Source of the DNA: Plasmodiophora brassicae
Taxonomy: Eukaryota
NCBI GenBank assembly: GCA_036867785.1
Contig: CP145417.1
Location: 1,054,001-1,118,000, forward strand
Direction of reading: 5' to 3'
DNA length: 64,000 nucleotides
A model generated the notes under the pieces. That model saw only the letters and a program-made list of their open reading frames with translations, had not been told where the DNA came from and made no database searches. Position numbers and translations under genes: made by a program. The first letter of the stretch is position 1. Every line of letters begins with the position of its first letter. Below, in pieces: positions 19,171-64,000 of the stretch.

Positions 19171-19321
19171 CATTCAGCCGGTTTCCAACGCCGAAGTTGG
19201 GAATCACGGGGTGCAGGGATGTAACGCCTGAACGGGCGCGTTGGCAAATGGCGCCTCAAATGGCGCCGACGGCAATAAAGTCCGAGACGACCGCGGACCG
19301 ACGGCAGTCGGTCAACGCGTG

Positions 19322-19547
19322 AGTCAGTTGAACCTGACAGTTTGACTGACTACCATGCCGCAGACGCGAGCAGCAACCCGGAAGACGAACGACGACAAGC
19401 CCGCCGAGACGGTGACGACTGACGTGATCGAGACGACTGACGAGGAGGCATGGAGAAGAGGATCGCGAAGGGCTTGTCGTCGTTCGTCTTCCGGGTTGCT
19501 CGCGTCTCCGGCATGGTAGTCGGTCAAACTGTCAGGTTCAACTGACT
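19322..19547. repeat. Inverted repeat (arms ~19322-19403 and ~19470-19547)
   Basis: agtcagttgaacctgacagtttgac..gacgacaagccc versus gggcttgtcgtc..gtcaaactgtcaggttcaactgact. Confidence 0.9.
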
Positions 19548-40337: not shown

Positions 40338-40586
40338 CCACCGGAATACAGGTTCGACCCTACCTACATACCTTCGTAGTCGGGACTCGCACCTGCCCGT
40401 ACCCGCATGGACTGCAGGAGCGACCCGACGTGGTCGATCACCGGTGCCGGGGGCGGTACTTCGGAAGCGGTTGCCACCGTGACTGCTGCCGAATTCCGAA
40501 TTCGTCAACAAACGAGTCGGCAGCAGCAATGCAGGTCTGAGAGACCTCACGGGGGGCCCCCGTTGCGGCATTGACGGTCTGCGCCA

Positions 40587-41677: not shown

Positions 41678-42567
41678 TTCCGGGCGCGGTGCGTCTATTC
41701 AGGACGGCGCTCAGTCGTCGCAGACGGTGACCGGGTCGTGCCTGCACCAACGTGGACGGCGTGTACGTCGTAGCGCGCAGGCGCATGACAAAGGCGGCAC
41801 CTGCGAGTACGTCGCCGGCCACGACGGCAGTGCTGGCCAGGAGCATGTAGACGAGCGTGTAGGACATGGGCGGCTGGCTGAGCTTCGGATTCGCCTTCTC
41901 CTCCAGCTCCCTCTTCCTAGCGGCGGCTGTGACGTCGCGAGTTGCCCTATTGGCGTCGTACGCCTACGTCGGAGCTGGATGTTATCCGATTGGTGAACGA
42001 GGACCTGTACGAACGGCCCATGGGCCTGAAGGTCATCAAGGAGGACACGGAGCGGTGCCTGTAAAGTGTACGCGGGCTGACGACGGGGCAGCTGCCAGAC
42101 ATGAAGACGTGGAACATTGGCGGCACGATGAAGCATGCAGTTGTCGACGGCAGCGTCATAGCCGGAGCTGCTGCGGTCCTACGTGACGGCGAACGCCGAC
42201 CCCAGCGTCACTGTCGTCAAGTGTGTGCGTGTGGGTGTGTGTCGGGTGTGAGTGTGGGTATCTGTAGTACCCACATAGTTCTACTGCCCACGTGCTGGGT
42301 ACGCGGGCGCGGGCTGTACCTGCGGTCAGCGCTGCGCGGCAAAACTGCGCCCCGGGGCGGCTCCTTTTGGGTGGACGACGACCGTCGGATCAGGTCGGGG
42401 TAGCCGGATCCCCAGGCAGGCAGGCAGGCTGGCTCCGTCGACGCAAATCCGGCCGCATCGATCAGGGGCCTGCGACCGCGTCACCCGCGCCGGCGTCGTT
42501 CAGCGTTCCGGGAGGCCTCGCACCTGTGCGACAACAGGCGTGGCTGACGACGCGGTCGTGTTCGGCC

Positions 42568-44229
42568 ATGGCGGGTGCCGATGATGACGCCATCGTCATG
42601 CCGGTCCTGCTGCGGTCCGAACCGGATCGTCGGCGTCAGACGTCGGTGATCTGCGACCAGGTCCGGTCGTGGGCGGCCGATCCGACGTCCGCCGACCTGG
42701 TCGCCCGGGTCCTACCCAGCATCGAACGCCTGGCATTCGATGCGCCGTTCGCCGACCTGCGACAGGCGTTCCGGGAGCTGTACGACGAGGTTGGACCATC
42801 GGGACGACGGCCTGCACCGTGCGTTTCGCGTATGCTGCCCAGGGAGGCGTTCTCGGAGGTGGGCGCCATCCCGGACGGCCCGCCGCTGTACGCTCTGCAG
42901 GACATGTTCCTGCTGACGGGTCGCATCGCATCCCTGGATCGCATCATTGCAATGCAACCGTCGTTCCTGGTCGCCTACGTATCCAGCTACGTGGCGATCA
43001 TGTACGATGATGGGCCGCTGTCTCTACCGTGCCGGTCGTACCTGGCGGCGTTGGCCAGCGCCCGCCTGCACTGCCAGTACCTGATCCGGCAGCAGGCACG
43101 GGAGTTCGTCAGGCTCCAGGGGCCCGTACAGTGGCTACACGATCGGGCCGCCGTCCCTGACAAGCTCAGGCTGTTCGACGAGGTCAACGCGCTGATGGCG
43201 CACCAGCCATGGAGGTTGACGCCGGCGCTCCTGCGATCTATGCTGTCCCATTCCGACCTGTCCGTCTCCGAGCTCGTCCATGGCATCGTCATACTGTCGA
43301 CGTTCCACGCGCTGTGTGGGCTGGCACAGGGTCTTGGCGCCGTCGACACTGACGACGACAGCGACGAGCGGTCAACGGCAACAGCAACGACCCCAAAGCC
43401 GGCACCGCCGGACAGTGATGAAGCGACGCAGCACCTCAAGGTCCTCCTTCAAACCTCGATGGACGTCCTACTTGCACAAGCGACGTCCCTCAAGGCTACT
43501 AACCATGCCCATTCTGGTGCGCATTCGGCCCCCGTTACTGCGACCCAACAACCACCGGCCTACCCGGCGCTCTGCGCTCCTGTCCTGGCCGACATGCAGT
43601 ACGAGGACTACAACGTGAAATCCAAGATCTACCGAGTGCTGCATATGGGCGAGTTCGACTGGAAGGGCCATGGATACTCGCTCATCAGCCGGTACTGGAA
43701 CGACCATACCGCGCAGCTGCTCGATGACGAGTTTGACCTGATTTACGCCCTCACCGACAACAATCTCTGCCAATCGGTGCGCGACATCGATACGGGGCCC
43801 TTCCGACGTGCCATTTGGCATTACACGTTCCGGTTGGTGCTTCGTTTGTGCACATGTCCGGTCTGGCCTACGTACTGACACATCCGGGGACGTAACAGGC
43901 TGTTCGGCGTGTCCGACGATGCATACAACTATCAGGTAGGGTACCTGTTCGTTCGGAACAGACGGGTTGCTAGATCTGAACGTGCGCGTGATCTGGAGCA
44001 GGAAGTCAACATCTTTCTGAACCGAGGTCTGAAGGCGTTTATCAAGAAATGCGCGTGCTTCCCGCACCTGGTGACGGGCGGCGACTTTGTGTCGCTGGGA
44101 TACAGCTTGCGGCCCGATGAGATTGTCCACGTCGCGTTACTGGCAATGGAGGCGAGGCGCCAGGCGACGCTACTGTATGCTCTGCGGGCACTCCAGCAGT
44201 CGACCCAGGTCCAAACAACAGCTGTATAG
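42568..44229 (+). CDS. SESN: Sestrin, with 2 short introns near the 3' end
   Basis: DGPLSLPCRSYLAALASARLHCQYL, NALMAHQPW, ELVHGIVILSTFHAL, FRRAIWHY, LKAFIKKCACFP, VHVALLAMEARRQATLLYALRA. Confidence 0.95.
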
Positions 44230-46380: not shown

Positions 46381-49300
46381 ATGGCCACCTTCCCCGCACC
46401 TTCCCCTCTCCTTCCCCGTACCCTTCCCCCTACGGGGTCGGGGGCACTGCGACCCCGTCGGCGCAATCTTCGGCAAGAGAGGCGGTCTTTCGGGGCGTCT
46501 GCAGTTGACGAGTTGGTCGACAACGGTGTGCAACAGCGAATGCGTCCGCTCACAACGTCGCAAGAAGATGTGGTTCGGCAGAGAGTCGGCGAGGCATTGG
46601 CCCGCATGGGCCTGCGCTTCTCAGCTCACGGCGGGCAACTGACTGGCAATCGCGTCCTGAAGCAGAACTCGCACAAGCAGTACAAGCAGCTCTACCGTCA
46701 GCTGGCTCTGTTCTGCAAACGAATTGGTGATTTTGAGTCATTGATCATTCTCGACGAGCGAGCTCCCACCGAATTCTGTCCATCGATGAGTGCAGACACA
46801 CTCATGGCGTTCATCGATTTCAAGGTCCTGCCACCTGGCACTCCCGTTGTTGTGCATCGTGACGATGCCGTCAGTTCTCATCGCGTTGGTCCCGTTCTGG
46901 ATTACTTCTCGAGACAGCCTATCCTCGCAACGGGTGCCTGGAACGATCCGAACTCATGCAACCAGCTGTTGTCAGCTGTCAGTGATTTGCATGTTGCGAG
47001 GCACCAGAGCGGACAGTACTCAGACCCATGTCCTGCGTGTATTGTCGCGTACCGGGACAATAATGTCTCGTGTAATTTTCACGCTGGAGTCCCGCGCTTG
47101 TGGAGATCGGGCTGCCCGCGATCGCATCAGAACGTGAAGAACCGGTACCGTCGCGTGACGCAAATCGACCTCGTTGATTACACTGCGCAAGGTGATTCGC
47201 CTCTGATGCCACATGAACTGATCGCCATTCGCAAAGCGCTACTCAGCGCAGATCGATATGAGGGACTTCGTCTCTATACGATGATCCTTTTCCACTGCCA
47301 GCTCTTCCTCCGATCCGCCGAAGGGTGTCCATTCCGAATTGAAGACATTCTGACGAGTCTGGTATCTGTCAATCCCGATAATGGCGACGTTAACTGCATG
47401 GGCGTCAAGATCAAGGGCAAGGCTGATGGATCGTTTGTCCCGTTAATGATATGGCGCTGTACAGACGTTCCCGAACTATGCTTGGTTAGCCACCTGCTAC
47501 TGTGGCTCAGCGTATCAGGCATAACGTCGGGTTACCTATTTCCCAAGAAGAAGGGGTTCTAGTGACTGCTTCGATTTCACCACCTTTAACAACCAGTAGG
47601 TCTCGTATGGTGCACTTACGAATGTGTATTTGACGGCGAATCGTGTCCGTAGACTGAAGAAGCTGCTCTCGGACGTTGTTGGACGCGATGACGGGCGAGT
47701 TTGGGGAACGCATACCCTCCGAAAAACTGGCTATTTGTTAGCTATTTGGGGGAAAGGTGAACTGGGGCAGATCATGCTGTCAGCACGGCACAAAACCGTT
47801 GAAAGCGCTAAACGGTACTACGGATCGGCAGCAGCTTTCCTGAAGATGATATCGCTTCAGAAGTAATTCGCATTCATGTGAACCTAACGCAATTTCGGAA
47901 CTGACTCGTCAACAGGCGAAGCGCTTTGTTAACCGTCGATTACACATGGGAGGCGATCCACATGTCCGACCATAGAGAACTGGTGGCTCTGAACGAGAAT
48001 CCCATCGGCGGCCTGCCGGATTTGTTTAGGCATGTACGGATCTTCGTCGAGAATTTGGTTGCTCAAAGAGTGCTGGCTCCGAACAAGACCAGAAACATCA
48101 TAGCACTCTCACAAGCTATCCTGCAGGCGAGGGATCAGAGTATCGACGCGAAAATCGACAACATTCTTGCGCTGATGCAAGCGAAAGGGTTCGGCGACTT
48201 GACAGGACAACTTGTTGAGCTACTTGCAAGAAAGTATGCTCTACAAGGAGTTCAAGATCGTCATGCTCCTGATGCTGCCGATAACAATGCCGACCAGCGC
48301 CGCTCTGCTCGTGGGCGTTGTGACGACCGAACACGATGAGTCAACCACACGGATTGACCGACTGAGGTCGGTCCGCGCCGTGGACGTTTATTGTACCTAG
48401 TGCGCTACGACGAAGGAGCCCAATTTGGTGCCGGCTGAGTCGCCAACACGACTCAGTCGTGACATAATAGTCCCCTTCTAGCCGCACCGGGAACGGGCTG
48501 CGGGCTTGTCTGGGTTGAAGCATTTGGTGAGGCCTAGCAAGAACTGCTTCATCATTAGGCGACAGTGTGTACTCCAGTCGACGAGTCAGGGCGTCAGGTG
48601 TCCAATGAACGAAATCAACTTCGCTAAGGAATTGGGGTGAACGAATCTGTCGTCGATGTAGCTTGTGGGCAAACGCACGTGCGGCGGCGTCCAGGAACAT
48701 GAGATCGTGGTTGAGAAACGCGATCGAGGTTGATGAGGCCTGGTCATCCTCTAACGTAGCAAAAGGTGCAAAGAAGGACTCGGCGGGCGCATTCAAGGGC
48801 GGGGGCTCCGCAGAGGCGCTCGTACACAGCTGTGCTATTGGAAAATACGGCCACCCAACTAGGATCCAGGCCAGGGCGACAAAGGTTGCGAACATCAGAA
48901 GATTGAGGCTGTGGCCGTCTCGGAAGCCACCATTGGAGGGAGGCGGCGGGAGAGACCGTTTCACCCTTCGTCGAACGGGGCCCCAGTTCCGGAAGGAGGA
49001 CATAAGGGGCGTGGACTCGGAGCCTGAACGGGGCAATGATAAGAGATCGGTGCGGCTGGTGGCAACAGTGTCATTGAAGGCGGCGACCCCCGGGATACCA
49101 TAATCGAAAGCGGAAGGACTCGGCCTGTCGTCGACGGCAGCAGTGGCAATGTGGCACTCCGGGTGGTCGTCATTAGATACGGAAGCCAGCTTGCCGTCGA
49201 CAAACACGGATGTAAGCGGCAACGTTTCGAGTGATTCAGCTGAAGGGATGGCACACGCAGGCGCAGGAACGCTTCGTGCAGGAGGTGAGACCCCAGCTGA

Positions 49301-51495
49301 GAGACTATCCTCGCGGTTTACTGTTGCAAATGGTCCCGCCGAAGAGACGAAGGACCCAGACCCATGGACGTCTCCTGTTCCCGCCGAAGAGACGAAGGAC
49401 CCAGACTCATGGACGTCTCCTGTACGGATCCCCACGAGGGTATCTCCGCGGCGCTGTAGGCGGCGCTGACGCCAATCGATATCTGGAATACGGCCACCCA
49501 ACTAGGATCCAGGCCAGGGCGACAAAGGTTGCGAACATCAGAAGATTGAGGCTGTGGCCGTCTCGGAAGCCACCATTGGAGGGAGGCGGCGGGAGAGACC
49601 GTTTCACCCTTCGTCGAACGGGGCCCCAGTTCCGGAAGGAGGACATAAGGGGCGTGGACTCGGAGCCTGAACGGGGCAATGATAAGAGATCGGTGCGGCT
49701 GGTGGCAACAGTGTCATTGAAGGCGGCGACCCCCGGGATACCATAATCGAAAGCGGAAGGACTCGGCCTGTCGTCGACGGCAGCAGTGGCAATGTGGCAC
49801 TCCGGGTGGTCGTCATTAGATACGGAAGCCAGCTTGCCGTCGACAAACACGGATGTAAGCGGCAACGTTTCGAGTGATTCAGCTGAAGGGATGGCACACG
49901 CAGGCGCAGGAACGCTTCGTGCAGGAGGTGAGACCCCAGCTGAGAGACTATCCTCGCGGTTTACTGTTGCAAATGGTCCCGCCGAAGAGACGAAGGACCC
50001 AGACCCATGGACGTCTCCTGTTCCCGCCGAAGAGACGAAGGACCCAGACTCATGGACGTCTCCTGTACGGATCCCCACGAGGGTATCTCCGCGGCGCTGT
50101 AGGCGGCGCTGACGCCAATCGATATCTGGGTTTGTATCCGCCAACCGACAACAATAGACGTTAAGGGTAGGCCCGGAGACACCCGTGGCGCCGGCACCCG
50201 AGCCCCAACGGACGAAGCGCCAATATGCTGCGACGTCGAGGAGACAGGGTCATGCCGAGGCGCGCCGCCGGGGTCCTGCAGAGACGTCGAGGCGGCAGAA
50301 ACGTGTAGGGACGATAAGGCAGGCGGGGAGTGAGGGTCCGAACAGGACAGAGAGTCGTCGGGCCAATCGGCAGCGGTACTAGTGAGCGAAGGCGGGGTGA
50401 GCGGTCGTGCAGGGAGATGATTCGCCAGTGGCAGAACACCCCGCGCGAAGTGCAGATGCGACAGGGGACCGAGAGCAAAATCCGACGCACCCGCAACATC
50501 CGGATTCGCGGACGATGGGACGTCGTCCGCCAATGACGGAATCGACCCATCGCCTCCTGCCATGAATGCAATACAATACCAACGATAGAAACGGTACGGC
50601 ACGGTACGATACGGCACAATACGATACGATACGGCACAATACGATACGATACGGCACAATACGAAACGAGTCGAGACAATACGACGACAGAAGGTTAGTC
50701 GGTACGGCACGGTACGATACGGCACAATACGATACGATACGGCACAATACGATACGATACGGCACAATACGATACGAGTCGAGACAAGACGACGACAGAA
50801 GGTTAGTCGGTCAAAATGTGACGACCGAACACGATGAGTCAACCACACGGATTGACCGACTGAGGTCGGTCCGCGCCGTGGACGTTTATTGTACCTAGTG
50901 CGCTACGACGAAGGAGCCCAATTTGGTGCCGGCTGAGTCGCCAACACGACTCAGTCGTGACAGGCGTAACCGGGCACGACCTGCTGTGTCTAGCGACAAG
51001 GATTCCAGTGGAGATGCGCCCGCCAACAATAACGATGCCTTCAACGCAGACGCTGAACGAGGACTTCATCAATCACAACCGCGTGCCCACGTTCCCATTG
51101 CTGACAATGGGCGACAGGCAGGTGGAATTTCTGACGAGCAACCACGTAATGACCTTGAACCCGAACCTCGATCCGGGAAACGTCGTCGTCGTGAAGCAGG
51201 CGATTTTGACGTCGCTGATCGGGACATGTCGAACATTGATACGCGCGCGAAGTTGCGAACGATGCGGCGTATTGAGATCCAGTGTGCAGGGAGGGCCAAG
51301 AATTCGTTCACGCCGTCCATGAGAACGTTCTATTATAATGTCCTGACCCCCGTCCTGAACTGTTTGAGGCGACATTGTAACGATGATGACGACGAATTCG
51401 CTAGACGATGGGGGGACCAGTTCGCGCACACAGATTTTAAGAAACGTCGGTGCCCGGGCTCGCATCCTTCGAACGGGTGCGGATGGCAGGGTTGA
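46381..51495 (+). CDS. Tyrosine recombinase, spliced, disrupted by an LTR insertion at 48319-50962
   Basis: Catalytic set LFLRSAE (R), KIKGKAD (K), HTLRK (HxxR), ARH (H), KRYY (Y). Removing the insert and one TSD restores the frame ..SARGR|NRARP.. to a Cys/His C-terminal domain. Confidence 0.88.
48319..50962 (-). mobile_element. Non-autonomous LTR retroelement, copy 1 (internally deleted)
   Basis: Two apparently identical 146-bp TG..CA LTRs (48319-48464 and 50817-50962), TSD GGCGT, PPT at 48471-48479. About 1 kb of gag-PR is missing relative to copy 2. Confidence 0.97.
48844..50129. repeat. 643-bp tandem duplication inside LTR element copy 1
   Basis: 48844-49486 matches 49487-50129; identical ORFs are offset by 643. 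Confidence 0.95.
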
Positions 51496-52135: not shown

Positions 52136-52177
52136 TCGCTCGATCATCGGGGGCTTGAGCTTCTCCGGTGAGATGTT

Positions 52178-52249
52178 TTGTAGACCGGACCGCCAACTAG
52201 GCCACGAGAGCAGCTGCTCTCGTGGCCTAGTTGGCGGTCCGGTCTACAA
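52178..52249. repeat. Perfect 72-bp palindrome
   Basis: ttgtagaccggaccgccaactaggccacgagagcag|ctgctctcgtggcctagttggcggtccggtctacaa. A degenerate copy lies at 19610-19694. Confidence 0.97.
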
Positions 52250-54640
52250 CCGGTTTTAGTGCGATCGACGAGATCCAAAGCACTATGGCGCGACGATTGA
52301 AGCCCGGGCAGCAGCCAATGGCGGAGGGGCTGGACCCGAGCTCACTGGAGAAGTTGGAGGAGCAGTACACGGACTACTGTCGCATCACGTCGGAGGCGGA
52401 GGCGTACCTGCCGGAGCGAGAACGACGCGGCCCAGTCTCAATCCGAAACTGCTTCAAGTTTCATGAACGACAGGCAATTGCGATGGACGAGCTGGAACTC
52501 CAGGACGAGCAGGAGATGACGGACGCTCACCTCGAGGCATGGATGGCCGAGGAGATTGCACAGCTGGGGAGCCGAATGGCGCACAATCTGAAGGCGGCGG
52601 AGAAGTTGCTGGCGAACGAACTGGCCATGAACACGAAGCTGCCATTCCTGATCGACAGGATCAAGTCGATACGATTCGAGTTGCGGCGTCTGGTGTCCCA
52701 AAACGGCCTGGAGTGGATGAACGACGACCAGGCGGGGAGGCGCGTCTTCGGCAAGCTAGTGGTGGATGCCATCAAGCCGATTCCGCTGCAGAAACACATG
52801 GTCGACTGGGTAGAACCGGATCCAGAAGCGCGCACTGGCGACATCGAGGGCCTGTTCCAGGAAGCCATCCGATACGCGAATTCGGTCGTCGACGTGCTGG
52901 GCAACCCGAGCACATCTGACAAGGAGACGGTCGCCCAACTGAGGGCAATCGCGAAGGGCAATGGCGGCAACTACCCTCGCGGTGTAAAGGTCAACAAGCG
53001 AGGCGGTCGACGGTCCCCGGAACCCACTCCCAAGCGTCAACGATTCGGTGGCGGATTCCAGCGCAACGGACGCGGTCATGAGCGCGAAGGCCCGAACGGA
53101 CGACGCGGAGAAGGTCATGGTCGACACAAGACTGAAGGACACGGTCGGGACACGCCGGGAGGACAGCAGGAAGGCGCACCTGAGGGAAACGGAAGCCAAC
53201 GGAACGGAGGGCCTGACCGAGGCGATAAGCAGGACGACAACCGTGACACGAAGAAAGCCCCCAAAGGCGGTTGTTTCCGATGCAAGGGCGAGCACTACGT
53301 GAGCGACTGCCCGCAACCGCCGACGGAGGAGGAGCGCCGTGGTCGTGGCAACCGCGGAATAAACGCGGCACGTGTTCGAACGTACGATGGTGATGCAAAG
53401 CGATGACTCTCTGAGGGCACATCGGGGAGACCACATTCGAGTGCGCTCTGGATTCCGAATGTCGTGGAGGCAACGTCATACCGGCGAACATTGCAGAACG
53501 GCTTGACGATGCAGCTGCGATACAGGAGATTGATCCGATCGAGATTGTCCTGGGTGATGACAAGACCACTGAGGTCTGCTCGAAGGTCCTTGCCGTTCCG
53601 ATCATGAAACTGCACGGCGAACACGGGACATTGACGCTGTACAACATGCGATTCTACATCTCGACGATGGTTGCGAAGACGCTGCTCGGAAACCCGATTC
53701 TCACGGCTATGGGAATTGATCCCAAACAGCAGTTGGAGTCGCTGATGTCAACGAACGATGGGGTCATGCAGTTCGATGCTGACTCGCTCGAGACGGTGGA
53801 GAGGGTGACGGCCAAGATGATCGAACTGAGTGCCAACCACGGATGCAACCCCTACACGAACAGCGAAGGCGAGCCGACGCGCAGTGAGATCGATCTCGGA
53901 AAGGTTGATCCGTCTGGAATCAGCGAGGCTGTCAACGATATGATCAAGCAGGCTAAGAAGAATGGCATTTCGAGGCAAGGCTTGAGGCGACTGCGGAAGA
54001 TCTTGAACAAGCACATGAATGAGTTCCGTACGACGCTGGGGTCTGACCCACCTGTGGACGTGGAACCATTGAGGACGGACCTGAAGGACGGTGCCACACC
54101 ATATCGGTGCAAGCCGCGCATGTACAATCCGAAGCAAAAGGAGTTCTTGACGGACATGATACGGATGCTGAAGGACAACGGCCTGATGTTTGCGAACATG
54201 AACTCGAAGTGGGCCAGTCCTGTCCTGATCGTCAAGAAGCCACACGGAGACGGCTACCGGCTATGCGTCGACCTTCGACAGGTGAACCTTCGATCTGAGC
54301 CAACTGTTTGTCCCATGCCGAACATCGAGGCGGGAGCCCGCAAGCTCGAAGGTATGTCGTGCTTCTTCAGCTTGGATGCCTTCAAAGGGCTTCTGGTTGA
54401 TGCCTCGGACAAATCTTGTCAAGAGATGTTTTCATTCATGACAGACGATTCGGTTTGTGTCACGACTGAGTCGTGTTGGCGACTCAGCCGGCACCAAATT
54501 GGGCTCTTCGTAGCGCACTAGGTACAATAAACGTCCACGGCGCGGACCGACCTCAGTCGGTCAATCCGTGTGGTTGACTCATCGTGTTCGGTCGTCACAT
54601 TTTGACCGACTAACCTTCTGTCGTCGTCTTGTCTCGACCC

Positions 54641-54820
54641 GTATCGTATTGTGCCGTATCGTATCGTATTGTGCCGTATCGTATCGTATTGTGCCGTATC
54701 GTATCGTATTGTGCCGTATCGTATCGTATTGTGCCGTATCGTATCGTATTGTGCCGTATCGTATCGTATTGTGCCGTATCGTATCGTATTGTGCCGTATC
54801 GTATCGTATTGTGCCGTATC
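54641..54820 (+). repeat. Minisatellite (GTATCGTATTGTGCCGTATC)x9 in the LTR-element leader
   Basis: Nine perfect 20-bp units. Shorter arrays occur in copy 1 at ~50592-50777 (reverse strand). Confidence 0.97.
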
Positions 54821-54864
54821 GTACCGTGCCGTACCGTTTCTATCGTTGGTATTGTATTGCATTC

Positions 54865-57122
54865 ATGGCAGGAGGCGATGGGTCGATTCCGTCATTGGCG
54901 GACGACGTCCCATCGTCCGCGAATCCGGATGTTGCGGGTGCGTCGGATTTTGCTCTCGGTCCCCTGTCGCAGCTGCACTTCGCGCGGGGTGTTCTGCCAC
55001 TGGCTAATCAGCTCCCTGCACGACCGCTCACCCCGCCCTCGCACAATAGTACCGCTGCCGATTGGCCCGACGACTATCGGTCCTCTTCGAACCGTCACTC
55101 CCCGCCTGCCTTATCGTCCCTACATGTTTCTGCCGCCTCGACGTCTCTGCAGGACCCCGGCGGCGCGCCTCGGCATGACCCTGTCTCCTCGACGTCGCAG
55201 CATATTGGCGCTTCGTCCGTTGGGGCTCGGGTGCCGGCGCCACGGGTGTCTCCGGGCCCACCCTTAACGTCTATTGTTGTTCAGTCACAAGACATTCCGC
55301 GTTTTTCGGGAAGCGATGGTCTGTCGACGACGCGTTGGTTGACTGCGTTCTCTCGGATCACCCAGACGTCGTTAACGTCTACAAGTCCTCTATCCGGCGA
55401 TGTGCAATGTGTCTTAACGACAGCCTTGCAAGGTCAGGCCCTTGAGACTTACCTCGACTTGCCTGCGGACGCGTCTATGGCGGACGTAGCGTCCGTCCTG
55501 CTCCGTGATTTCCCGGGACCTTCGTTCAAGCAGGTTGAAGCGAAGTTTGACAACCTGAAGCAGACTGCAGGTGTCGCTCACCACGCACTGGCATTCCAAC
55601 GCTTGTACAAGGACCTTCAAAGACTTGACCCATTGTACAGACTCAATCCGGCCCGCTTGGCGGAAAAGTTCCGCCTCTCGTTGAACCCTGCGCTCTCCGA
55701 AGCGCTGTTCTTCTACAACTTCAGAGACTACGACAAAGTTCTCGAGATGGCGGCCCATCTTGAGTCGAAATATCCAATCGCCGCCATCAACGCTGGCGGT
55801 GATGCAAGGCAACAACCCCTGGCTTGCCATTATTGTCGCGAGGTTGGGCATTTTATTGCGTCCTGCCCGAAGAGGCCAGCTTGCCCGCACTGTCATAAGG
55901 TTGGCCACTGCTCATCGCTGTGTCCCGAGCGGTCCGGCAACCCTCTCCACGTCACTGATCTGTTCCTTATGACGTCTCCCTCAATACCGCATCTGTTGGT
56001 ATCGGTACGCCTCGTTATCGGCTCACGCCGTGTCAACACTATCGCCCTGTTAGACTGTGGCGCGACTTCCAACTTCATCGACTGGTCGTTCTGTCGTCAC
56101 CATGAAATACCGGTTCGCTCTAAATCGCGTGCCATTCCTGTTCGCGTCATCGACGGGCGACACCTGTCTCCAGTAACTCAGGAAACCGTCCCGCTACGTG
56201 CTACCGTCGACGGATGTTTCGACAGCGACGTCGTCCTGAACATGATCCACTCGCCTCAACACCCTATCATTCTTGGGCTGCCTTGGTTGGCGGATACAAA
56301 CCCAGATATCGATTGGCGTCAGCGCCGCCTACAGCGCCGCGGAGGTACCCTTGTTGGGATGTCACGCCTTACAGGAGACGTCCACGAGTCTGGGTCCTTC
56401 GTCTCTTCGGCGGGACCGTTTGCAACAGTAAAGCGCGGGGATAGTCTCTCAGCTGGGGTCTCGCCTCCTGCACGAAGCGTTCCTGCGCCTGCGTGTGCCA
56501 TCCCTTCAGCTGAATCACTCGAAACGTTGCCGCTTACATCCGTGTTTGTCGACGGCAAGCTGGCTTCCGTAGCTAATGACGACCACCCGGAGTGCCACAT
56601 TGCCATTGCTGCCGTCGACGACCGGCCGAGTCCTCCCGCTTTCGATTATGGTAGCATCCCGGGGGTCGCCGCCTTCAATGCTACTGTTGCCCCCAGCCGC
56701 ACCGATCTCTTATCATTGCCCCGTTCAGGCTCCGAGTCCACGCCCCTTATGTCCTCCTTCCGGAACTTGGGCCCCGTTCGACGAGGGGTGAGACGGTCTC
56801 TCCCGCCGCCTCCGCCGCCTCCCTCCAATGATGGCTTCCGAGACGGCCACAGCCTCAATCTTCTGATGTTCGCAACCTTTGTCGCCCTGACCTGGATCCT
56901 AGTTGGGTGGCCGTATTTTCCAATATTACAGCTGTGTACGAGCGCCTCTGCGGAGCCCCCGCCCTTGAATGCGCCCGCCGAGTCCTTCTTTGCACATTTT
57001 GCTACGTTCGAGGATGACCAGGCCTCATCAACCTCGATCGCGTTTCTCAACCCCGATCTCATGTTCCTGGACGCCGCCGCACGTGTGTTTGCCCACAAGC
57101 TACATCGACGACAGAGTCGTTC
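54865..57122 (+). CDS. Gag (two CCHC knuckles) + aspartic protease + TM-containing extension, interrupted by the CACTA element
   Basis: CHYCREVGHFIASC, CPHCHKVGHCSSLC, ALLDCGATSNFID, IILGLPWL, LLMFATFVALTWILVGWPYF. The frame resumes after 62879. Confidence 0.9.
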
Positions 57123-57302
57123 CACAGGCAGCATATCGGCTACAGCGGGGATACAATTTTGCGAAGGAGCTACAAATCGTCTACATCAGTGGACACATTG
57201 GTGATACATTCTTCCGCCTGCCCACGGACTGCGCTGATGGGGATACAAATGTGCTACAAGCCTTCAGCACCGCGCTTGGACGTACAACCAAACATCGTTT
57301 AC

Positions 57303-60300
57303 TTATCCACTCGTAGACCATGCAACGGACGACGCCACAATCGCATTGGCCCTCGGCAGCACACAGACAAAGCTGGCGCGCATGTTCGACCCACTGTGCG
57401 AGATCATCTCTGGAATTTTCGTGGGCACCAAGACGACGTTCGCCGGAACCGACTGGTTGATCGGGAAGAACGGCGACAGTTCACGTCCGGACGTCAACCC
57501 ATCCCCGGTAATATATCGTGGCAGCTTTAACTCGACGCGCCGATTCCCAATTCGCAGTTTCTTGGGGACGTACATCCTCCACCAACTGTGCAAATGATCG
57601 GATTCAAATGCAGACACTTGGGTAACAGCAGTTTCTCCCAATTACCGTTGACAGATGAACACGTTGAACGGCGGGCCGCCAGGGAATTCGAACTGACCAA
57701 TCGCTTTGATCTGGCCGGTGTAATGTTCGTCTCCTGATATCGTGTAGACCAGGTCATTCTGGCTCCTTGGAAACGTGCGATCCAGCTGCGTCGTCCTCCA
57801 TAGCACATTGCCTAAAGCAAAGTAAGGACAACTTTGCGCAAGGCGCTGATGCAGCGGGTTCGTACCATAATACGCCCGGTGATACACTTTGACTTTCGTG
57901 GGAAGCAACCGCCGACCGAAGTTGGTTAAACACCACTCGTCAAACGCGTCGACGTCGCGGAACATGTCAACGTACTCGCGTACAGAGTGACCGACGTCGT
58001 GCGCAAACTGATGACATGCATCACGGTACTCGTCGAAGTATGGATGTGCATGGGCAGTGCACCATTCCTGACTGCCGTACATATGGCGGTGCAGCCAAGC
58101 CCGATCGTGTCTCGACAGTAGCAGGTCGCTGCCGGGTTGGCCCACAGTTAACGCCAACACGAGCCCGTTCTGATCCTGCTCGTCGACCTCTTCTGCATCT
58201 CCGAACGTAAACCGGTTTCCGGTATGCGTTGGGAAACAATCGGCATAGTCAGCCCTGACAAAGTGCTCGGTAAATAACTCAATGATGGCAATAACCTGGT
58301 GCTGTTCTCTTACCGGTTCCTCGCTGTCGCCGACATCACCTGGAACGCTTGTACGATGTTACGCGCGAACCCGATCGTCGCGGATAACTCGCGTTTCATG
58401 TAGAGCATCCATCGCTCCACGTAGTAATTCCAGACAAATCCCTTGATTGGGCCGAATTGTTTAACGATATCAGGGATGTGCATTATGGAATGGGCCTGCG
58501 ACCAGCCGTCAACACAATCAAAGCACTCGTGTGAAGCATTTCTTACTGGTATGGTCATCATGGTCGCTGGCCCTAAATACTCCATCTCAGCGAGAGCGGC
58601 GCGAAATTCCAAAGCAATATTGTCAAGGGCAGACTTGGGAATTGCCTTTGACAAAAGGAGGTTTGCGCAGTGAAGAAAAGTAAAGAATGCCGACCAGAAA
58701 CGCATCCGTGTCAGGCTATTCAAGAGAACGGAAGGATTGCAGAGAGAGAAGAAAACAGCGATACCAAAGTCGCCGATCCAGGGCATGGTATTGTGACCCT
58801 TCCAGCCAGACCTGTTGAAGCAATTCGAAGGCCGATCTCCGTTTCCTAAACTTTCCTTATCGAATACGGCGTCACTATACCATGACATTACAGTTACCAG
58901 TAGGCCACTTGATAGAGTCCAGGACCTCGTGCAGTCGCTTCGACAGAGAGGTTCCACTTGCAGTGGCAGGATACCGTGTAGGGTCAACTGGAATGTGCCA
59001 CGGCGGACAGTCGCTGCAAGTTCCATCGAGGCTTGAACAAGAATGGAAGACAGTCCGTCCGAAGTATTCCTCCAGCTAATTAAACATGTCAATTACCCCA
59101 CTGATTCTTCGCGCACACTGCATGCAACCTTACCGGGAGGATGTAGAAGTTTCGATGGCCTTTGAAGTTGATGATATCAAAAACGCGAGGCAGGAAGGTT
59201 AGCAGAAGACAGTGTAGCGTGCATAGTACGAACATGACCGTACTATTTATTAAATCCGGGTACCAGACCGGTACTATACGCATCCGTTCTAGATGCACTG
59301 GCAGGTTTCGATTTGAACCCTAACGTAGACGTTAATATCTATGGTTCAGCTAAGTCGGTAATACTCACGATTAGGTATGTCGCGAATTGCGTCCCTTATG
59401 GACGCCCACCTTGCTGCCAAGGGTGCCTTCTTGAAGGTTCTCTCACACCTTCGTCGAACGGGGTGCCCATTCGGTAGACAACCCCAGACGTGCGGAAACA
59501 GTTTGCGGTCACTGCAGTAGATGCCCGCGACATCACAGCGGTTGCACGCGTTGGACAGCCCTTGTGACGACAAGGATGCCACTTTTGCCAGTTCTACATA
59601 ATCATGACCCTGACATATGTCAGAACACTGGCAGACGCGCTCGACCAACGATGAGTACCTGGTGGACGTGGAAAAGACGCATCCACTTAAGGGACCCATC
59701 GGACGCGTCCCGGAAAGGTACCGCAAACTTGAAGCCAATGTTGTGCTCCACGACTTGTAACCTGAAGATTGAATTTAATTATATTACTGCAATCTGAACA
59801 GGGATAAAGCATATCAAACCGGCGAAAAAGATGCTGGACCGCTTTCGGGGAACTGGCCGGCATGAGGCCAATGAGCATGACGAAGCCGCGGTTGCACCGT
59901 AGTCCCTGTCTCAATGCGAGATTTACGAGCAGCATCGGGATCAAGGACTCGTTCGTCCACTTCGTAACGCGCGCGCCATCTATGCCAACAGATGTTGCAA
60001 TGGGAAAGACGTCTTCCCTATTGAAGAGTATCACACGGACGCGATAATAAGCAGGCGAAGTGGACTACCGATCGCATTCGCTCATAAAAGGAGCAAACGT
60101 TCGTTGTACGTGTGGGATGGGTGCACCTGAGTCCGTCTATACTGTTGTAGCTGCTCATTCATGTTTTCCGCCAGGAATCTGCAGCCCCACTGCAATATGA
60201 TCTGTCACAATGGAAATGTCAAAAGAGCAAAGGATCTCATCATTTGCGCGAACCTGCAACAACATTGGCAGATAATAACAGGAACTTGTACGATTTCGGC

Positions 60301-61185
60301 AGCACGGCGGCCGTACACGGTTCACGTTATGGGCAGGCCAAACATGGCCTTCATCACAATACCTATACTCGATAAACGGGCAAGTCAGGTCCAATGCATC
60401 GAAACGCGCTCGCAAATCACGCATGTCGGTGAATAGTGGCGGCTTACGCTCCAGAACGCGGGCCGAATTCCGGTATTCGTCCATCATGGAGTCGATGGTA
60501 CAGCGGGCTTGATCATCCGGTGAGTCTGGTATAACACTCTTCAACTTCTCAAGGTGGAACAAACAATTCCTCAGGGCCCCATAGAAAGCAATGCAACCGT
60601 GCGTGTTACCTCAGCGATAAATTCCCCAACGCACTGCAACTTTGCCTGCTTCGCCGTAGAATGAATAACTTGAGACATGCGAGTAAACGCGGCGTCGGAC
60701 AGGGAGGACTTGCACATCTCGTCGAGGACGAAGAAAGTCTGCTGCAGACCACTGCTAGGCTTAGCAGAGGGTCTGACAAACCCGGGAATGCGGGCTTTCA
60801 GCAGCGCCGCTAGTGCTTCAGAGCACTCGACTAGACATTCATCAGCATCGGGCGGAAGGGCTTTCCCGACATCAAAATCGACATTGGATATGTTCGATTC
60901 AGCATCATAGGTAGCATGCATCTTGGCGACGCCCGCTGATGCATGGTCGGAGTCATACGACGAATCGGAAACAGATGAATCGGAATCCTCGGGCGAATGA
61001 TCGACCGCAGGAGTGTCGACGATGGGCACTGGAGACGATGGACTAGTGCTGTCCGATGGTGGAATCGAACTGGCCGCATCCGTTCGTGCAGCCTTTCTGG
61101 CACGAAGAACACGTGGGGTCAGAAGCATGTCGGTGCAGCGAGGCGACACAGTTGCGGCAAGTGACAAGTCCGAGGAAGCCGACAA
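57303..61185 (-). CDS. EnSpm/Transposase_21-type DDE transposase, multi-exon, possibly frameshifted
   Basis: YRYCDEGH..PCC..CYYLPM, GIDG..SLIPMLLVNLAL..R...VMLIGLMP, GHD..ACNRC, TLHCLLL, HSIMHIPDIVKQFGP..WNYYVERW. Confidence 0.85.
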
Positions 61186-61600
61186 CTCTGGCGCGTACCC
61201 AGCGGCGGACCGCAGGCGTAAACGTCGAGACCGTTATGTACAAATGTAATACGAAATAGAATCTGACGTGGGTACGTTAGGGTTTATTGTTGTTCCTGCT
61301 CAAATCGTGGAATACGGAAGCCTTGTGACGAGAAGTCGTAGTGAGCGGCGTTTTGCAAGATTCAGTGCGACCGGCTCGGGAGAGGGGACCGGCTCGGGAG
61401 AGGGGTGCTGCATGATGAAGGCTGCGCAAACCCCCACGCAGTGAACTCGACCCAGTCACAGTCCGATCCGGGCTGCTCATTCGCGACGTGCGCCCACAAC
61501 AACTCGAAGTGATATTGGGCGGTGTAGGTCGAGATGGCGCGACGAAGACGAGCATCGTCGAGGTACAAGTACGTCGGCCCTCTTTTCAGGTATCTGACTG

Positions 61601-62353
61601 TTGCCATTCGAACACAGACCTTCACGGGAAGCCCGTTCAGAGACTGAACGGTCAACGTCGCCCAGTCCTGGCCCTACTCGTGATCCGTTTTCGGGCAGGA
61701 GGAAAGAACCCTTGCCACAGGGGCCGATTGCGGAATACCTGTCACAGGAGAATGTCAGGGCAGCAATGACGCCCCAGCGCAACGCGCTGCGGAGCGAGAT
61801 GAAAACTCTGTGTGCCGCGTAGGTCAGGCATGGTTTGATATGACCTTATACAATCTGACGAAACCGTGGTTGTATAGCTATTACAGTGACGAGTATTTGC
61901 TGTCGATGGGCGGACAGAAGAAGCCCATCACGATGAAAAATTCACAACGATTTGAAGGACTGGCTGAGGCATCGCGATGATCTCAATGAAGAGGATGTCG
62001 ACCAGTACTCCTATAATCATACGAATCTTAGTAAGTGTGTATTTCCATGTAAACACCACTGTTTCTGAATGTGTCAACTGCTCGTAGTGATCAAAACTGA
62101 GATTGCGAGGCGCCGAGATGATCCGGAGATACGCCATCACCAAGAGGGATCTCAGGTGCGTCGGAAGAATCGAAAAGGCCCAATTGTGGCGCAGAATCCA
62201 GATTCAAAGAAATTCACGTTCATCGCGAACCTTTGCGACGAGCTGTGCGATGATGATGATGATGATGAGGATTACACCTGGGTGCACCCCGACCTCGTTA
62301 AGATGACGGCTCGTCATATAAAGCGCGCCAAGCAAGAGCTGAGGAATCGGTAA
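61601..62353 (+). CDS. Possible second (accessory) gene of the CACTA element, spliced or degenerate
   Basis: Coding-like plus-strand segments separated by GT-AG introns (gtaggt..gtatag, gtaagt..cgtag). No recognisable motif. Confidence 0.35.
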
Positions 62354-62440
62354 TACAGTTTCACGCTCCGGCGGTGTGCGACGCGTCGCAATGGATACGG
62401 GTTTCGTGCTTCGAATGCGCTACAAATTCGGTAGTAGAAG

Positions 62441-62866
62441 GGCTACAGCTGGGCTACATTAATGTAGCCGGTCTGTTACCGAACGGCTACATTTACGCTA
62501 CATTAATGTAGCGTAACTGTAGCCTTCCGGCTACATCCAGACTACAAGTGTTGTAGCTAAAATGTGTCCAATCGGCTACATCTCAGATACATTGAATGTA
62601 GCGTGTATGCGTCCGAAAGGCTACATTTGAGCTACATTAATGTAGCATGCACGTGCCCGGGGTGCTACATTTGAGCTACATTAATGTAGCATGTTTGTGG
62701 CCGAAAGGCTACAAACACGCTACATCGAATGTAGCACAAATGTAGCCAACACGCTACAAACGTGACGCAGGCATGTAGCACCTCTGTTGTCGGGCGGCTA
62801 CATGAATGTAGCGCCGATGCACCATTGCAAAACACCAAAATAATGTAGCACGCATGTAGCGAATCT
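62441..62866. repeat. CACTA subterminal repeat array (GCTACA/TGTAGC in both orientations)
   Basis: Many copies, including four palindromic GCTACATTAATGTAGC. Confidence 0.92.
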
Positions 62867-64000
62867 GCTGCCTGTGTTCACCCCAATTCCTTCGCGAAGT
62901 TGATTTCGTTCATTGGACACCTGACGCCCTGACTCGTCGACTGGAGTACAGACTGTCGCCTAATGATGAAGCAGTTCTTGCTAGGCCTCACCAAATGCTT
63001 CCACCCAGGCAAGCCCGCAGCCCGTTCCCGGTGCGGCTAGAAGGGGACTATTATGTCACGACTGAGTCGTGTTGGCGACTTAGCCGGCACCAAATTGGGC
63101 TCCTTCGTAGCGCACTAGGTACAATAAACGTCCACGGCGCGGACCGACCTCAGTCGGTCAATCCGTGTGGTTGACTCATCGTGTTCGGTCGTCACAGTTT
63201 GGACACCTACACGAAGCATCCAGGGCGGACTGAACACGGCCCCGCAATTCCAAGCAAGGATGGTGAACATCTTCGACGACCTGATGGATCGAATGATGGT
63301 CTGGATTGATGATCTGCTGGGATTCGCGAAGACGGAGGCCGAGCTTCTGGAACTGCTGGCCAACGTATTCGAACGGGCACGCGAAGTCGGACTGAAGTTC
63401 AACCCTACGAAATGCACGATCTTCGCCAGGGAGCTGGTCTGGTGCGGGAAGATCTACTCTGGCAACGGCATTCGACATGACCCGGAACGGATAGCCGCTC
63501 TGACAAGCATGCCGGAGCCGAAGACGGTTAAAGACCTGCAGCAACTGATGTGGGCGGTGGGATGGATGCGCACGACCATCCCGGACTACCCCTACATCAT
63601 CGAACCACTACAGGAGGTCGTTGGCCGGGCGAATGAGGAGCTGAAACGAACGAAGTCCAGTTCTTATGCTCATTGACGGTGGACGCGATGGGCTGGTCTG
63701 AACGACAACGAGAAGCATTCGAGAAGCTGCGGGCGGTGCTGGTCGAACACGTGCAACTGGCCTACCCCAAGAAGGATTTCCAGACCTGCCTCTTCACGGA
63801 CGCAAGCGAATTCGCATGGTCGGCGGTCGTGACTCAGATTCCAATGGAGGACATCGAATTGCCGATCAGTGAGCAACGACATGAACCGCTGGCGTTCCAC
63901 GGGAAACGCTTCGACAACACGCAGCTACGGTGGCCTATCATCGAGAAAGAGGCAGCGGCGATCGTCCAGGCGACTACGCGAGGCGATTTCTTGCTGTAAA

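What the first reader, a model, noticed from the sequence alone, without database searches (positions are those of the whole stretch)
54521..54611. tRNA-independent, Tf1-like self-priming signature in the small-LTR family
Seen: no TGG-starting tRNA PBS follows the 5' LTR. Instead TTGACCGACT (54602-54611) is exactly complementary to AGTCGGTCAA inside the LTR (54555-54564), which lies about 25 nt downstream of an AT-rich TACAATAAA box. The same pairing is in copy 1 (50805-50814 and 50852-50861). Known: S. pombe Tf1 and Tf1/sushi chromoviruses prime reverse transcription using the first ~11 nt of their own mRNA. Inference: self-priming operates in this protist family, with the TSS near 54555.
Basis: partly seen in the sequence, partly recalled or inferred. 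Interest (0 to 1): 0.75.

Follow-up and report, generated by a model that had tools for sequence, protein, structure and literature searches.

The report
Likely self-priming small LTR retrotransposon
A small, recently mobile genetic element in an unplaced protist has ten bases just after its left repeat that pair with ten bases inside the repeat, the hallmark of elements that start copying themselves without a host tRNA, a kind already predicted in fungi, vertebrates and plants.

Summary
AGTCGGTCAA (54555-54564, inside the 142-bp 5' LTR) is the exact complement of TTGACCGACT (54602-54611, starting 2 nt after the LTR end). The same pair is in copy 1.

The pairing is unlikely to be chance: 8 of 20,000 LTR shuffles and 96 of 17,017 pseudo-ends in the window reach 10 nt.

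New evidence:
- A diverged relative at 19220-19351 keeps both 10-mers (10/10 and 9/10; 10/10 in an inverted duplicate). The U5 between them is only 51% alike and 11 nt shorter.
- Contigs from four public runs list eight variant sites in the LTR, none in either 10-mer.
- Two linked U5 changes turn a U.G pair of a predicted inner hairpin into A-U.
- A TCAGTC initiator-like motif puts its A exactly at 54555.

Not tested: the transcription start (no RNA data), the host tRNAs (no genome held) and the RT phylogeny (both copies encode only gag and protease).

Against: AATAAA followed by GT-rich sequence also reads as a poly(A) module, and an LTR hairpin would sequester the primer in any RNA that starts further upstream.

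Verdict: a probable (about 0.6) self-primed, non-autonomous Ty3/gypsy-like element, and a new member of a known kind. Membership of the Tf1/sushi clade is not shown.

The parts
54458..63196 (+). Copy 2 of the small-LTR element (8,739 bp), inserted in the RT gene of an unrelated gypsy-like element. It is flanked by the 5-bp target duplication GTTTG (54453-57 and 63197-201).
   Evidence: In 4 of 4 laid runs, contigs join 54457 directly to the sequence that follows 63201 in the window (table 7).
54458..54599 (+). 5' LTR of copy 2, 142 bp, TGTCAC...GTCACA.
   Evidence: It aligns with 63054-63196, 50962-50817 and 48464-48319.
54523..54531 (+). AT-rich box TACAATAAA. It is either a TATA-like element at -32 to -24 of the proposed start, or a poly(A) signal AATAAA.
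   Evidence: CAATAAA is kept in the relative. AATAAA occurs only 10 times on both strands of the window.
54545..54562 (+). LTR hairpin GACCGAC-CTCA-GTCGGTC. Its left arm equals the core of the site after the LTR.
   Evidence: Both arms are kept in the relative while the loop differs (GGCA).
54553..54558 (+). Initiator-like TCAGTC with its A at 54555.
   Evidence: it is the only TCAKTY match in the LTR. AATAAA-N18-28-TCAKTY occurs only at the 4 LTR copies in the window.
54555..54564 (+). Proposed self-primer AGTCGGTCAA.
   Evidence: No variant is listed here. It is 10/10 identical in the relative.
54568..54600 (+). Predicted U5 hairpin enclosed by the primer/PBS duplex. The stems are 54568-72 with 54596-600 and 54575-79 with 54590-94.
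   Evidence: Variants 54579 T>A and 54590 G>T change the U.G pair to A-U.
54602..54611 (+). Primer-binding site TTGACCGACT, 2 nt after the LTR end.
   Evidence: No variant is listed in the 3 of 4 runs that cover it.
54640..54843 (+). Array of 20-nt tandem repeats in the leader. The number of units differs from copy 1.
   Evidence: families D1 and D2.
54865..57204 (+). ORF for gag (two CCHC knuckles) and a retropepsin (LLDCGATSNF). There is no RT, RNase H or integrase.
   Evidence: RVP_2 at 20.0 bits against a cut-off of 20.3; zf-CCHC at 16.8 against 20.8. (36% identity to the gag-PR part of P0001).
63039..63053 (+). Polypurine tract AGAAGGGGA plus CTATTA, directly before the 3' LTR.
   Evidence: Variants are seen as loose ends.
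63054..63196 (+). 3' LTR of copy 2.
48319..50962 (-). Copy 1 (2,644 bp), with two identical 146-bp LTRs and TSD GGCGT. The self-primer is at 50852-50861 and the PBS at 50805-50814 (plus-strand coordinates).
19220..19351 (+). Diverged relative. LTR about 19220-19339 (TGTAAC...CTGACA), AATAAA 19274-79, hairpin 19296-19313, AGTCGGTCAA 19306-15, U5 hairpin 19323-27 with 19334-38, and site TTGACTGACT 19342-51.
19463..19547 (-). Inverted duplicate of the relative's LTR end, PBS and leader. It carries the unmutated TTGACCGACT at 19518-19527, read on the minus strand.

Best explanation
These are two recent insertions of a non-autonomous Ty3/gypsy-like LTR retrotransposon (gag and protease only). It most likely starts minus-strand DNA synthesis by self-priming rather than with a host tRNA.

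Inferred mechanism:
1. Transcription starts in the 5' LTR at or within a few nt of 54555, so the left arm of the LTR hairpin is not in the RNA.
2. The 5' AGUCGGUCAA folds back on UUGACCGACU, 2 nt past the LTR, helped by the U5 hairpin enclosed in the 37-nt loop.
3. The RNase H of an autonomous partner's RT cuts after the 10-mer.
4. The freed 3'-OH is extended through U5 (37 nt) and then transferred to the 3' R.

Shown here: the element's anatomy, the complement and its position, its conservation, and the predicted fold. Inferred: the start site, the cleavage, the strand transfer and the partner.
For: 1. The complement is exact over 10 nt and starts 2 nt after the 5' LTR in both copies. Chance rates are 8 of 20,000 shuffles and 0.56% of pseudo-ends. 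It meets the criterion used to predict self-primers in plants.
2. There is no TGG in the 50 nt after the LTR, in this family or in the relative. The window holds no tRNA gene and the region has no Rfam match.
3. The relative at 19220-19351 keeps the primer 10/10 and the site 9/10, or 10/10 in its inverted duplicate. The one change gives a G.U pair. By contrast U3 is 56% alike, U5 is 51% alike (24 nt against 35), and the leader is 50% alike.
4. laid four runs of four studies, all as contigs. Eight variant positions are listed in 54508-54590, and none in 54555-64 or 54602-11.
5. The RNA 54555-54615 folds as a 10-bp duplex plus an inner hairpin at -24.1 kcal/mol (z -3.7; 0 of 200 shuffles fold as well). 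The relative folds the same way at -17.9 kcal/mol (z -2.35; 7 of 200), with an inner hairpin of different sequence.
6. The linked variants 54579 T>A and 54590 G>T turn a U.G pair of that hairpin into A-U. Variants 54584 and 54587 lie in its loop.
7. TCAGTC, with its A at 54555, is the only initiator-like match in the LTR and lies 24 nt after the AT box.
8. Copy 1's LTRs are identical and the copies have intact TSDs, so the family moved recently with this arrangement.
Against: 1. No RNA evidence for the start site could be obtained.
2. AATAAA followed by GT-rich sequence (54568-76, 54584-88) is the classic LTR poly(A) module (PMC3601003). Read that way, RNA 3' ends would fall near 54545-54565. 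That would leave little or no R downstream of the primer for strand transfer. R plus U5 after the primer is at most 35 nt here and 24 nt in the relative.
3. The initiator match is not kept in the relative, which has GCAGTC.
4. If the RNA starts 10 nt or more upstream, the minimum-energy folds pair the primer with the LTR's left arm instead.
5. The two 10-mers are conserved but show no covariation. The only compensatory change is in the inner hairpin. In run X15, 54579 T>A is in 10 contigs and 54590 G>T in 8, so their linkage is not complete.
6. The LTR is rich in GAC/GTC words, so other pairings with the same site exist: 54588-93 with 54604-09, and 19322-33 with 19340-51, which has 12 bp.
7. 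I did not find the third duplex of the Tf1 'pretzel'.
8. Host tRNAs and small RNAs were not available.
Confidence: 0.6

Rival explanations
1. A host RNA primes reverse transcription: a tRNA fragment or another small RNA ending in ..AGUCGGUCAA. The LTR copy of that sequence has another role, for example a U5/R-leader stem that presents the site, as around retroviral primer-binding sites.
For: The site-side conservation between the family and the relative runs one base further on each side (TTTGACCGACTA) than the self-complement. Half-tRNA primers and elements with no identified primer are on record (PMC6317226; PMC5006619). The host tRNAs could not be checked.
Against: There is no TGG in the 50 nt after the LTR. 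The window has no tRNA gene and the region has no Rfam match. A host primer does not explain why the LTR 10-mer is kept 10/10 in a relative whose flanks have diverged to about 50%. The stem would cover the whole site and leave no room for another primer.
Confidence: 0.2
2. The three copies of GACCGAC/GTCGGTC (54545-51, 54556-62, 54604-10) are conserved for a reason other than priming. They could form a palindromic protein-binding site at the core promoter, or an R-region hairpin for 3'-end formation. The pairing with the site after the LTR would then be a by-product, and the true primer remains unknown.
For: Both hairpin arms are kept in the relative while the loop differs. Upstream-start RNAs prefer the hairpin. 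The LTR holds several TGA(C/G)TCA-like and GAC/GTC words.
Against: This reading does not explain why the third copy sits at offset 2 from the LTR end in both families, exactly where a primer must anneal. It also does not explain why the complement extends beyond the 7-nt arm to 10 nt (A at the 5' side, AA at the 3' side) on both partners.
Confidence: 0.15
3. The complement is a chance match.
For: Matches of 10 nt or more occur at 0.56% of pseudo-ends in this palindrome-rich window.
Against: Only 8 of 20,000 shuffles reach 10 nt. The pair is conserved in a diverged relative. No variant is listed in either 10-mer in four runs.
Confidence: 0.03

Closest known systems
Tf1/Tf2 of Schizosaccharomyces pombe and Tj1, Tosmo and Tcry1 of other fission yeasts (self-primed chromoviruses)
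   Same: No tRNA-type site is present. A short stretch of the 5' LTR (11 nt in Tf1, 10 nt here) is complementary to the site next to the LTR. A U5 hairpin lies between the two partners (passages read in PMC7175516, PMC10085805 and PMC4600332).
   Different: In Tf1 the primer is shown by experiment to be the first 11 nt of the mRNA and to be cut off by RNase H. Here the start and the cut are inferred. Only two of the three 'pretzel' duplexes are predicted. The elements here have no RT, RNase H, integrase or chromodomain. The LTR is 142 bp, with only 45 nt from the primer to the LTR end. An extra LTR arm can sequester the primer.
Tf1/sushi group and the Tcn1 clade (vertebrates, fungi, mosses), with self-priming predicted in silico
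   Same: The same kind of sequence-only prediction applies, and the same criterion is met (PMC6317226).
   Different: Membership of that clade is defined by RT/RH/INT phylogeny, which cannot be done here. The closest gag-PR homologue (P0001) is only 36% identical over 177 residues.
TAR lineage of plant Ty1/copia (Houba, Osr-1), with self-priming predicted
   Same: It shows that self-priming signatures occur outside Tf1/sushi (PMC6317226).
   Different: It belongs to a different superfamily. The protease and gag relatives here are Ty3/gypsy-like.
Skipper of dictyostelids (protist chromovirus with unconventional priming)
   Same: It is a protist LTR element without a TGG site (PMC5006619).
   Different: Skipper has a polypyrimidine stretch and no complement in the left LTR. 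This family has a perfect 10-nt complement.
Retroviral U5-IR and U5-leader stems
   Same: Stems are formed by LTR and LTR-adjacent sequence around the primer site (PMC3601003).
   Different: In retroviruses those stems flank a tRNA-binding site. Here the stem occupies the site itself.

Membership tests
LTR retrotransposon, Ty3/gypsy-like, non-autonomous | Two direct LTRs with TG..CA ends, a 4-6 bp target duplication, and a polypurine tract before the 3' LTR | tested here: met
   The LTRs are 142-146 bp (TGTCAC..GTCACA), the TSDs are GTTTG and GGCGT, and AGAAGGGGA lies at 63039-47. Empty-site contigs appear in 4 of 4 laid runs.
LTR retrotransposon, Ty3/gypsy-like, non-autonomous | gag with zinc knuckles and a retropepsin related to Ty3/gypsy; RT, RH and IN absent | tested here: met
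   RVP_2 scores 20.0 bits, just under the 20.3 cut-off, and zf-CCHC is also under its cut-off; 4 homologues, all carrying RVT_1 and RVP_2 in their precomputed Pfam lists, the best at E 1.1e-16. No RT, RH or IN ORF lies in 54458-63196 or 48319-50962.
Self-primed LTR retrotransposons (Tf1-type mechanism) | No site complementary to a tRNA 3' end next to the 5' LTR | tested here: inconclusive
   There is no TGG in the 50 nt after the LTR, but the host tRNA set was not available.
Self-primed LTR retrotransposons (Tf1-type mechanism) | A 5' LTR segment complementary to at least 10 bp starting 0-5 bp after the LTR (criterion of PMC6317226) | tested here: met
   10 bp at offset 2, in both copies and in the relative.
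Self-primed LTR retrotransposons (Tf1-type mechanism) | The complementary segment is the very 5' end of the mRNA | not testable with these tools
   No RNA data were usable. Motifs only: TCAGTC with its A at 54555, 24 nt after the AT box. This match is not kept in the relative.
Self-primed LTR retrotransposons (Tf1-type mechanism) | RNase H cut after the primer, and strong-stop DNA primed by it | not testable with these tools
   This needs an experiment.
Self-primed LTR retrotransposons (Tf1-type mechanism) | Three-duplex 'pretzel' RNA structure (PMC10085805) | tested here: inconclusive
   The central duplex and a U5-IR-like hairpin are predicted in both the family and the relative. For the third duplex I found only 4-bp candidates by eye.
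Tf1/sushi clade of chromoviruses | RT/RH/INT phylogenetic placement and an integrase chromodomain | not testable with these tools
   Neither copy has pol beyond the protease. No longer relative was found. The RT split by copy 2 belongs to an unrelated element.

The most novel reading that the evidence does not exclude
The conserved trio, U3 arm GACCGAC, R-start GTCGGTC(AA) and post-LTR GACCGAC, could act as a start-site-gated RNA switch.

Only transcripts that begin inside the hairpin loop (54552-55) would lack the left arm and so have a free self-primer. Read-through RNAs, and the 3' copy of the LTR, would lock the same 10-mer in a hairpin. That hairpin might also bring AAUAAA closer to a downstream cleavage site.

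If so, self-priming would have arisen, or been kept, in a deep-branching protist lineage in a gag-protease-only parasite of another element's RT and RNase H. Its R plus U5 would be far shorter than in Tf1.
Probability: 0.15. Interest if true: 0.55.

Novelty: new member of a known kind. Interest (0 to 1): 0.35.

Why it matters
Self-priming frees a retroelement from dependence on a host tRNA. By experiment it is known only from fission-yeast Tf1. Elsewhere it is predicted from the same sequence signature seen here: fungi, vertebrates, mosses and one plant copia lineage.

A clear case would extend the known range of the mechanism. This one is in a eukaryote with no close sequenced relative, since the best GRP94 match is 52% identical. 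It sits in a recently active, very compact, non-autonomous element.

It would also offer a minimal model, with only 47 nt from primer to site. In such a model the roles of the U5 hairpin, and of a competing LTR hairpin, could be tested.

It does not change the current picture of how retroelements prime.

Tried and rejected
- RNA evidence for the start site. One search listed no RNA holder: all 24 rows are Logan contigs and none is on record as RNA. The four runs laid behave like DNA, with many different flanks, so they give no start, end or strand. Run X3 has no cover past 54599. I did not use contig depths, because the tool says they cannot rank parts.
- Whole genome and host tRNAs. No genome is held, and ARAGORN finds 0 tRNA genes in the window.
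- Rfam. There are 0 matches in 54400-54900 at E up to 10. The only window hit at gathering score is a Guanidine-II riboswitch at 27401-27444, most likely spurious in a eukaryote.
- More family members. A metagenome scan with the 18-nt hairpin core gave 18 loci, and all 18 match over only 18-28 nt, so they are chance hits. The search for related loci with the NC-protease part found no relative in viral contigs (0 of 3 stretches confirmed) or in genome contigs (0 of 89).
- Autonomous partner. A search for longer proteins scored none of 3,453 candidates. The element interrupted by copy 2 is unrelated (best E 0.3-1.3).
- Lineage. The protein atlas was uninformative. GRP94 homologues reach 52% identity at most among the 120 listed.
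- PDB sequence search of gag-PR found only nucleocapsid zinc-knuckle matches.
- Earlier findings of this scan gave nothing in three look-ups.
- Literature. The original Tf1 papers and the Esnault and Levin review are not held. A search for self-priming in protists listed 15 of 1,778 papers, and none of the 15 holds the term. I therefore make no claim that such a case is absent from print. The supplementary files of PMC6317226 (Additional files 1 and 5, on PBS types) were not opened.
- A tRNA-like reading of the LTR core was considered and dropped. The flanks cannot form a D stem, and Rfam finds nothing.
Full report
OBSERVATION. AGTCGGTCAA occupies 54555-54564 and TTGACCGACT occupies 54602-54611. 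The two are perfect reverse complements over exactly 10 nt, with mismatches on both sides. TACAATAAA lies at 54523-54531. The same pair is present in copy 1, at 50852-50861 and 50805-50814 on the plus strand.

ANATOMY. The 'small-LTR family' consists of two complete insertions.
- Copy 2 is 54458-63196 on the plus strand. Its LTRs are 54458-54599 and 63054-63196 (TGTCAC...GTCACA). It is flanked by the 5-bp duplication GTTTG.
- Copy 2 splits the RT gene of an unrelated gypsy-like element, with gag at 52285-53403 and PR-RT at 53415-54457 continuing from 63202.
- In 4 of 4 public runs laid on the junction, contigs join 54457 directly to the sequence that follows 63201 (table 7). This confirms the insertion boundary.
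- Copy 1 is 48319-50962 on the minus strand. It has two identical 146-bp LTRs and the duplication GGCGT. It interrupts a 306-codon open frame.
- A polypurine tract, AGAAGGGGA, lies 6 nt before the 3' LTR.
- Copy 2 encodes gag with two CCHC knuckles and a retropepsin (54865-57204). Pfam RVP_2 scores 20.0 bits, just under its 20.3-bit cut-off.
- Database-wide, 4 homologues were found. All 4 carry RVT_1 and RVP_2 in their precomputed Pfam lists, and the best has E 1.1e-16 and 36% identity.
- Neither copy has RT, RNase H or integrase. Copy 1 is an internally deleted and partly duplicated version of copy 2. The 5.75 kb at 57123-62875 of copy 2 is absent from copy 1 and carries minus-strand ORFs.

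The family is therefore non-autonomous and needs a partner's enzymes. Because the 5' LTR ends at 54599, the 10-mer TTGACCGACT begins 2 nt after the LTR, exactly where a primer-binding site is expected. There is no TGG in the following 50 nt.

CHANCE. A perfect complement of 10 nt or more, between the LTR and a segment starting 0-5 nt after it, arose in 8 of 20,000 shuffles of the LTR. It arose at 96 of 17,017 pseudo-ends (0.56%) sampled over both strands of the rest of the window, which is itself rich in palindromes.

One caveat applies. The LTR 10-mer is the right arm of an LTR hairpin, GACCGAC-CTCA-GTCGGTC (54545-54562). The LTR is also rich in GAC/GTC words. Other, shorter pairings with the same site therefore exist, such as 54588-93 with 54604-09.

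VARIATION IN PUBLIC RUNS. One search listed runs holding part of the element, and I laid four of them, from four studies and four coded organisms. All are contigs and behave like DNA, showing the LTR with several different flanks.
- Eight variant positions and three small indels are listed within the LTR (54505-54590). None falls in 54555-64 or 54602-11.
- The site after the LTR is covered in 3 of the 4 runs. The tool warns that an absent row does not prove identity.
- Four changes travel together in the single variant contigs of X3 and X9: 54579 T>A, 54584 G>T, 54587 T>C and 54590 G>T. In X15, 54579 T>A is in 10 contigs and the other three changes are in 8.

A DIVERGED RELATIVE IN THE WINDOW. 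nhmmer with the LTR plus site found a weak match near 19.3 kb (E 2e-4). Reading it shows an LTR of about 120 bp, 19220-19339 (TGTAAC...CTGACA), with these features:
- CAATAAA at 19273-79.
- The same hairpin arms with a different loop (GACCGAC-GGCA-GTCGGTC, 19296-19313).
- AGTCGGTCAA at 19306-15.
- A U5 of 24 nt instead of 35.
- A 2-nt spacer, then TTGACTGACT at 19342-51.
- An inverted duplicate of the LTR end, site and leader at 19463-19547, which carries the unmutated TTGACCGACT (19518-27).

Segment identities to the small-LTR family are as follows:

| Segment | Identity |
|---|---|
| U3 | 56% |
| AT box to left arm | 70% |
| Primer | 10/10 |
| U5 | 51% |
| Site after the LTR | 9/10 (10/10 in the duplicate) |
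| Leader | 50% |

The single change in the site is a CpG-to-TpG transition that keeps a G.U pair. Both partners are thus conserved islands in otherwise diverged sequence, at the same offset from the LTR end. This is conservation, not covariation.

RNA FOLDS. The RNA 54555-54615 folds with the 10-bp primer/site duplex closing a loop that holds a two-part hairpin, 54568-72 with 54596-600 and 54575-79 with 54590-94. The energy is -24.1 kcal/mol, with z -3.7 and 0 of 200 shuffles folding as well. The relative folds the same way at -17.9 kcal/mol (z -2.35; 7 of 200), with an inner hairpin of unrelated sequence (19323-27 with 19334-38).

In the family's variant, 54579 and 54590 are the two sides of one predicted pair. 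The pair changes from U.G to A-U, while 54584 and 54587 lie in the loop. The same variant breaks the rival local pairing 54588-93 with 54604-09.

This arrangement matches two of the three duplexes of the Tf1 'pretzel': the central primer/PBS duplex and the U5-IR-like stem (PMC10085805, passages read). I did not find a convincing third duplex.

If the RNA starts at 54540 or earlier, or at 19290 in the relative, the minimum-energy fold pairs the primer with the LTR's left arm. In the relative, the site then pairs with 19322-33. The self-priming fold therefore depends on a start inside or just after the hairpin loop.

START SITE AND POLY(A). TCAGTC at 54553-58 is the only match in the LTR to the initiator motif TCAKTY (motif from PMC3601003). 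Its A is 54555, the first base of the complement, 24 nt after the AT box. In the whole window the combination AATAAA-N18-28-TCAKTY occurs only at the four LTR copies.

Against it, AATAAA followed by a GT-rich stretch is the conserved poly(A) module of gypsy-like and retroviral LTRs (same paper). Read that way, RNA 3' ends would fall near 54545-54565.

From the established scheme of retroviral strand transfer (my own knowledge, not a call), R must extend beyond the primer for the first jump. Any self-priming model therefore needs the poly(A) site some 10 nt or more past 54564, and only 35 nt are available. The paper notes AT-rich motifs with a dual promoter and poly(A) role, and very short R regions, in other groups, so the conflict is not fatal. 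It remains unresolved.

MECHANISM PROPOSED. Transcription starts at about 54555. The 5' 10-mer pairs with the site after the LTR. A partner-encoded RNase H cuts after it. The 3'-OH is then extended through 37 nt of U5 before transfer.

From the logic of plus-strand strong-stop synthesis (inference), the site in the progeny is copied from the primer itself. This would keep the two 10-mers identical in complement and would explain why no mismatched intermediates are seen. I put this explanation at about 0.6.

RIVALS.
- A host tRNA fragment or other small RNA as primer: 0.2. This cannot be excluded without the genome.
- The GACCGAC/GTCGGTC trio conserved for promoter or 3'-end functions, with priming unexplained: 0.15.
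- Chance: about 0.03.

COMPARISON WITH WHAT IS KNOWN. Self-priming was shown by experiment for Tf1: the first 11 nt pair with the site, and RNase H cuts between nt 11 and 12 (PMC7175516). It is predicted from sequence for these groups:
- Tf2, Tj1 and other fission-yeast elements.
- Tcn1 of Cryptococcus.
- The Tf1/sushi group.
- The Tcn1 clade of mosses and the TAR lineage of plant copia elements, which together make up 12% of the plant elements surveyed (PMC6317226).

The dictyostelid Skipper lacks both TGG and a complement (PMC5006619).

The present family works like the first group by every sequence test I could apply. It cannot be filed in the Tf1/sushi clade, because that clade is defined by RT/RH/INT phylogeny and a chromodomain, and these copies have neither.

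The host lineage is unresolved. The window's GRP94 gene has no hit above 52% identity among the 120 listed.

VERDICT. This is a new member of a known kind, with one feature of modest interest: a conserved LTR arm that can sequester the self-primer. Interest 0.35.

Noticed in passing
window 19603-19695 and 52170-52250: A palindromic unit of about 95 nt (..GGTGRGATGTTTTGTAGACCGGACCGCC..GGTCTACA) occurs twice. At 52181-52250 it is a perfect 35+35 nt hairpin just upstream of the gag ATG of the element that copy 2 interrupts. Homology between the two sites is confined to the unit, so it may be a small foldback or MITE-like repeat.
   Followed up: partly
window 19322-19409 and 19463-19547: There is an inverted duplication of the relative's LTR end, primer site and leader, with arms 92-96% complementary. 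It starts exactly at 19322, the 5' end of a U5 segment that can pair over 12 bp with the adjacent site. Its origin is unexplained.
   Followed up: partly
window 54640-54843 and 50572-50800: The leader of the small-LTR family holds an array of 20-nt tandem repeats whose unit number differs between the two copies. Another leader variant appears as a loose end after 54624 in runs X15 and X9.
   Followed up: no
window 57123-62875: A 5.75-kb segment is present in copy 2 and absent from copy 1. It carries minus-strand ORFs, one with a weak DUF4218 match (22 bits, below the 27-bit cut-off), a domain seen in transposase-associated proteins. It may be a nested DNA transposon.
   Followed up: partly
window 48844-49143 and 49487-49786: Copy 1 carries an internal 643-bp tandem duplication, with 300 nt at 100% identity.
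   Followed up: no
window 47926-48318 and 50968-51492: Copy 1 interrupts an open frame that is continuous over 306 codons once the element and one TSD copy are removed. Neither piece has a Pfam match.
   Followed up: partly
window 52285-54457 and 63202-64000: This is an unrelated gypsy-like element split by copy 2, with gag (one CCHC-like knuckle), then PR-RT in another reading frame. RVT_1 is matched after the insertion. Uninterrupted copies exist in all four laid runs.
   Followed up: partly
window 20441-22792; also 1204-2010, 39735-40537 and 42268-43875: Host genes lie here: an apparently intron-less GRP94/endoplasmin ending in KEEL, a PH-domain protein, ALAD (in two frames, probably because of an intron) and a sestrin (PA26). 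Window GC is 60%.
   Followed up: partly
window 27401-27444 (minus strand): There is an Rfam Guanidine-II riboswitch hit just above gathering score (32.9 against 32 bits, E 0.009). It is probably spurious in a GC-rich eukaryote.
   Followed up: no
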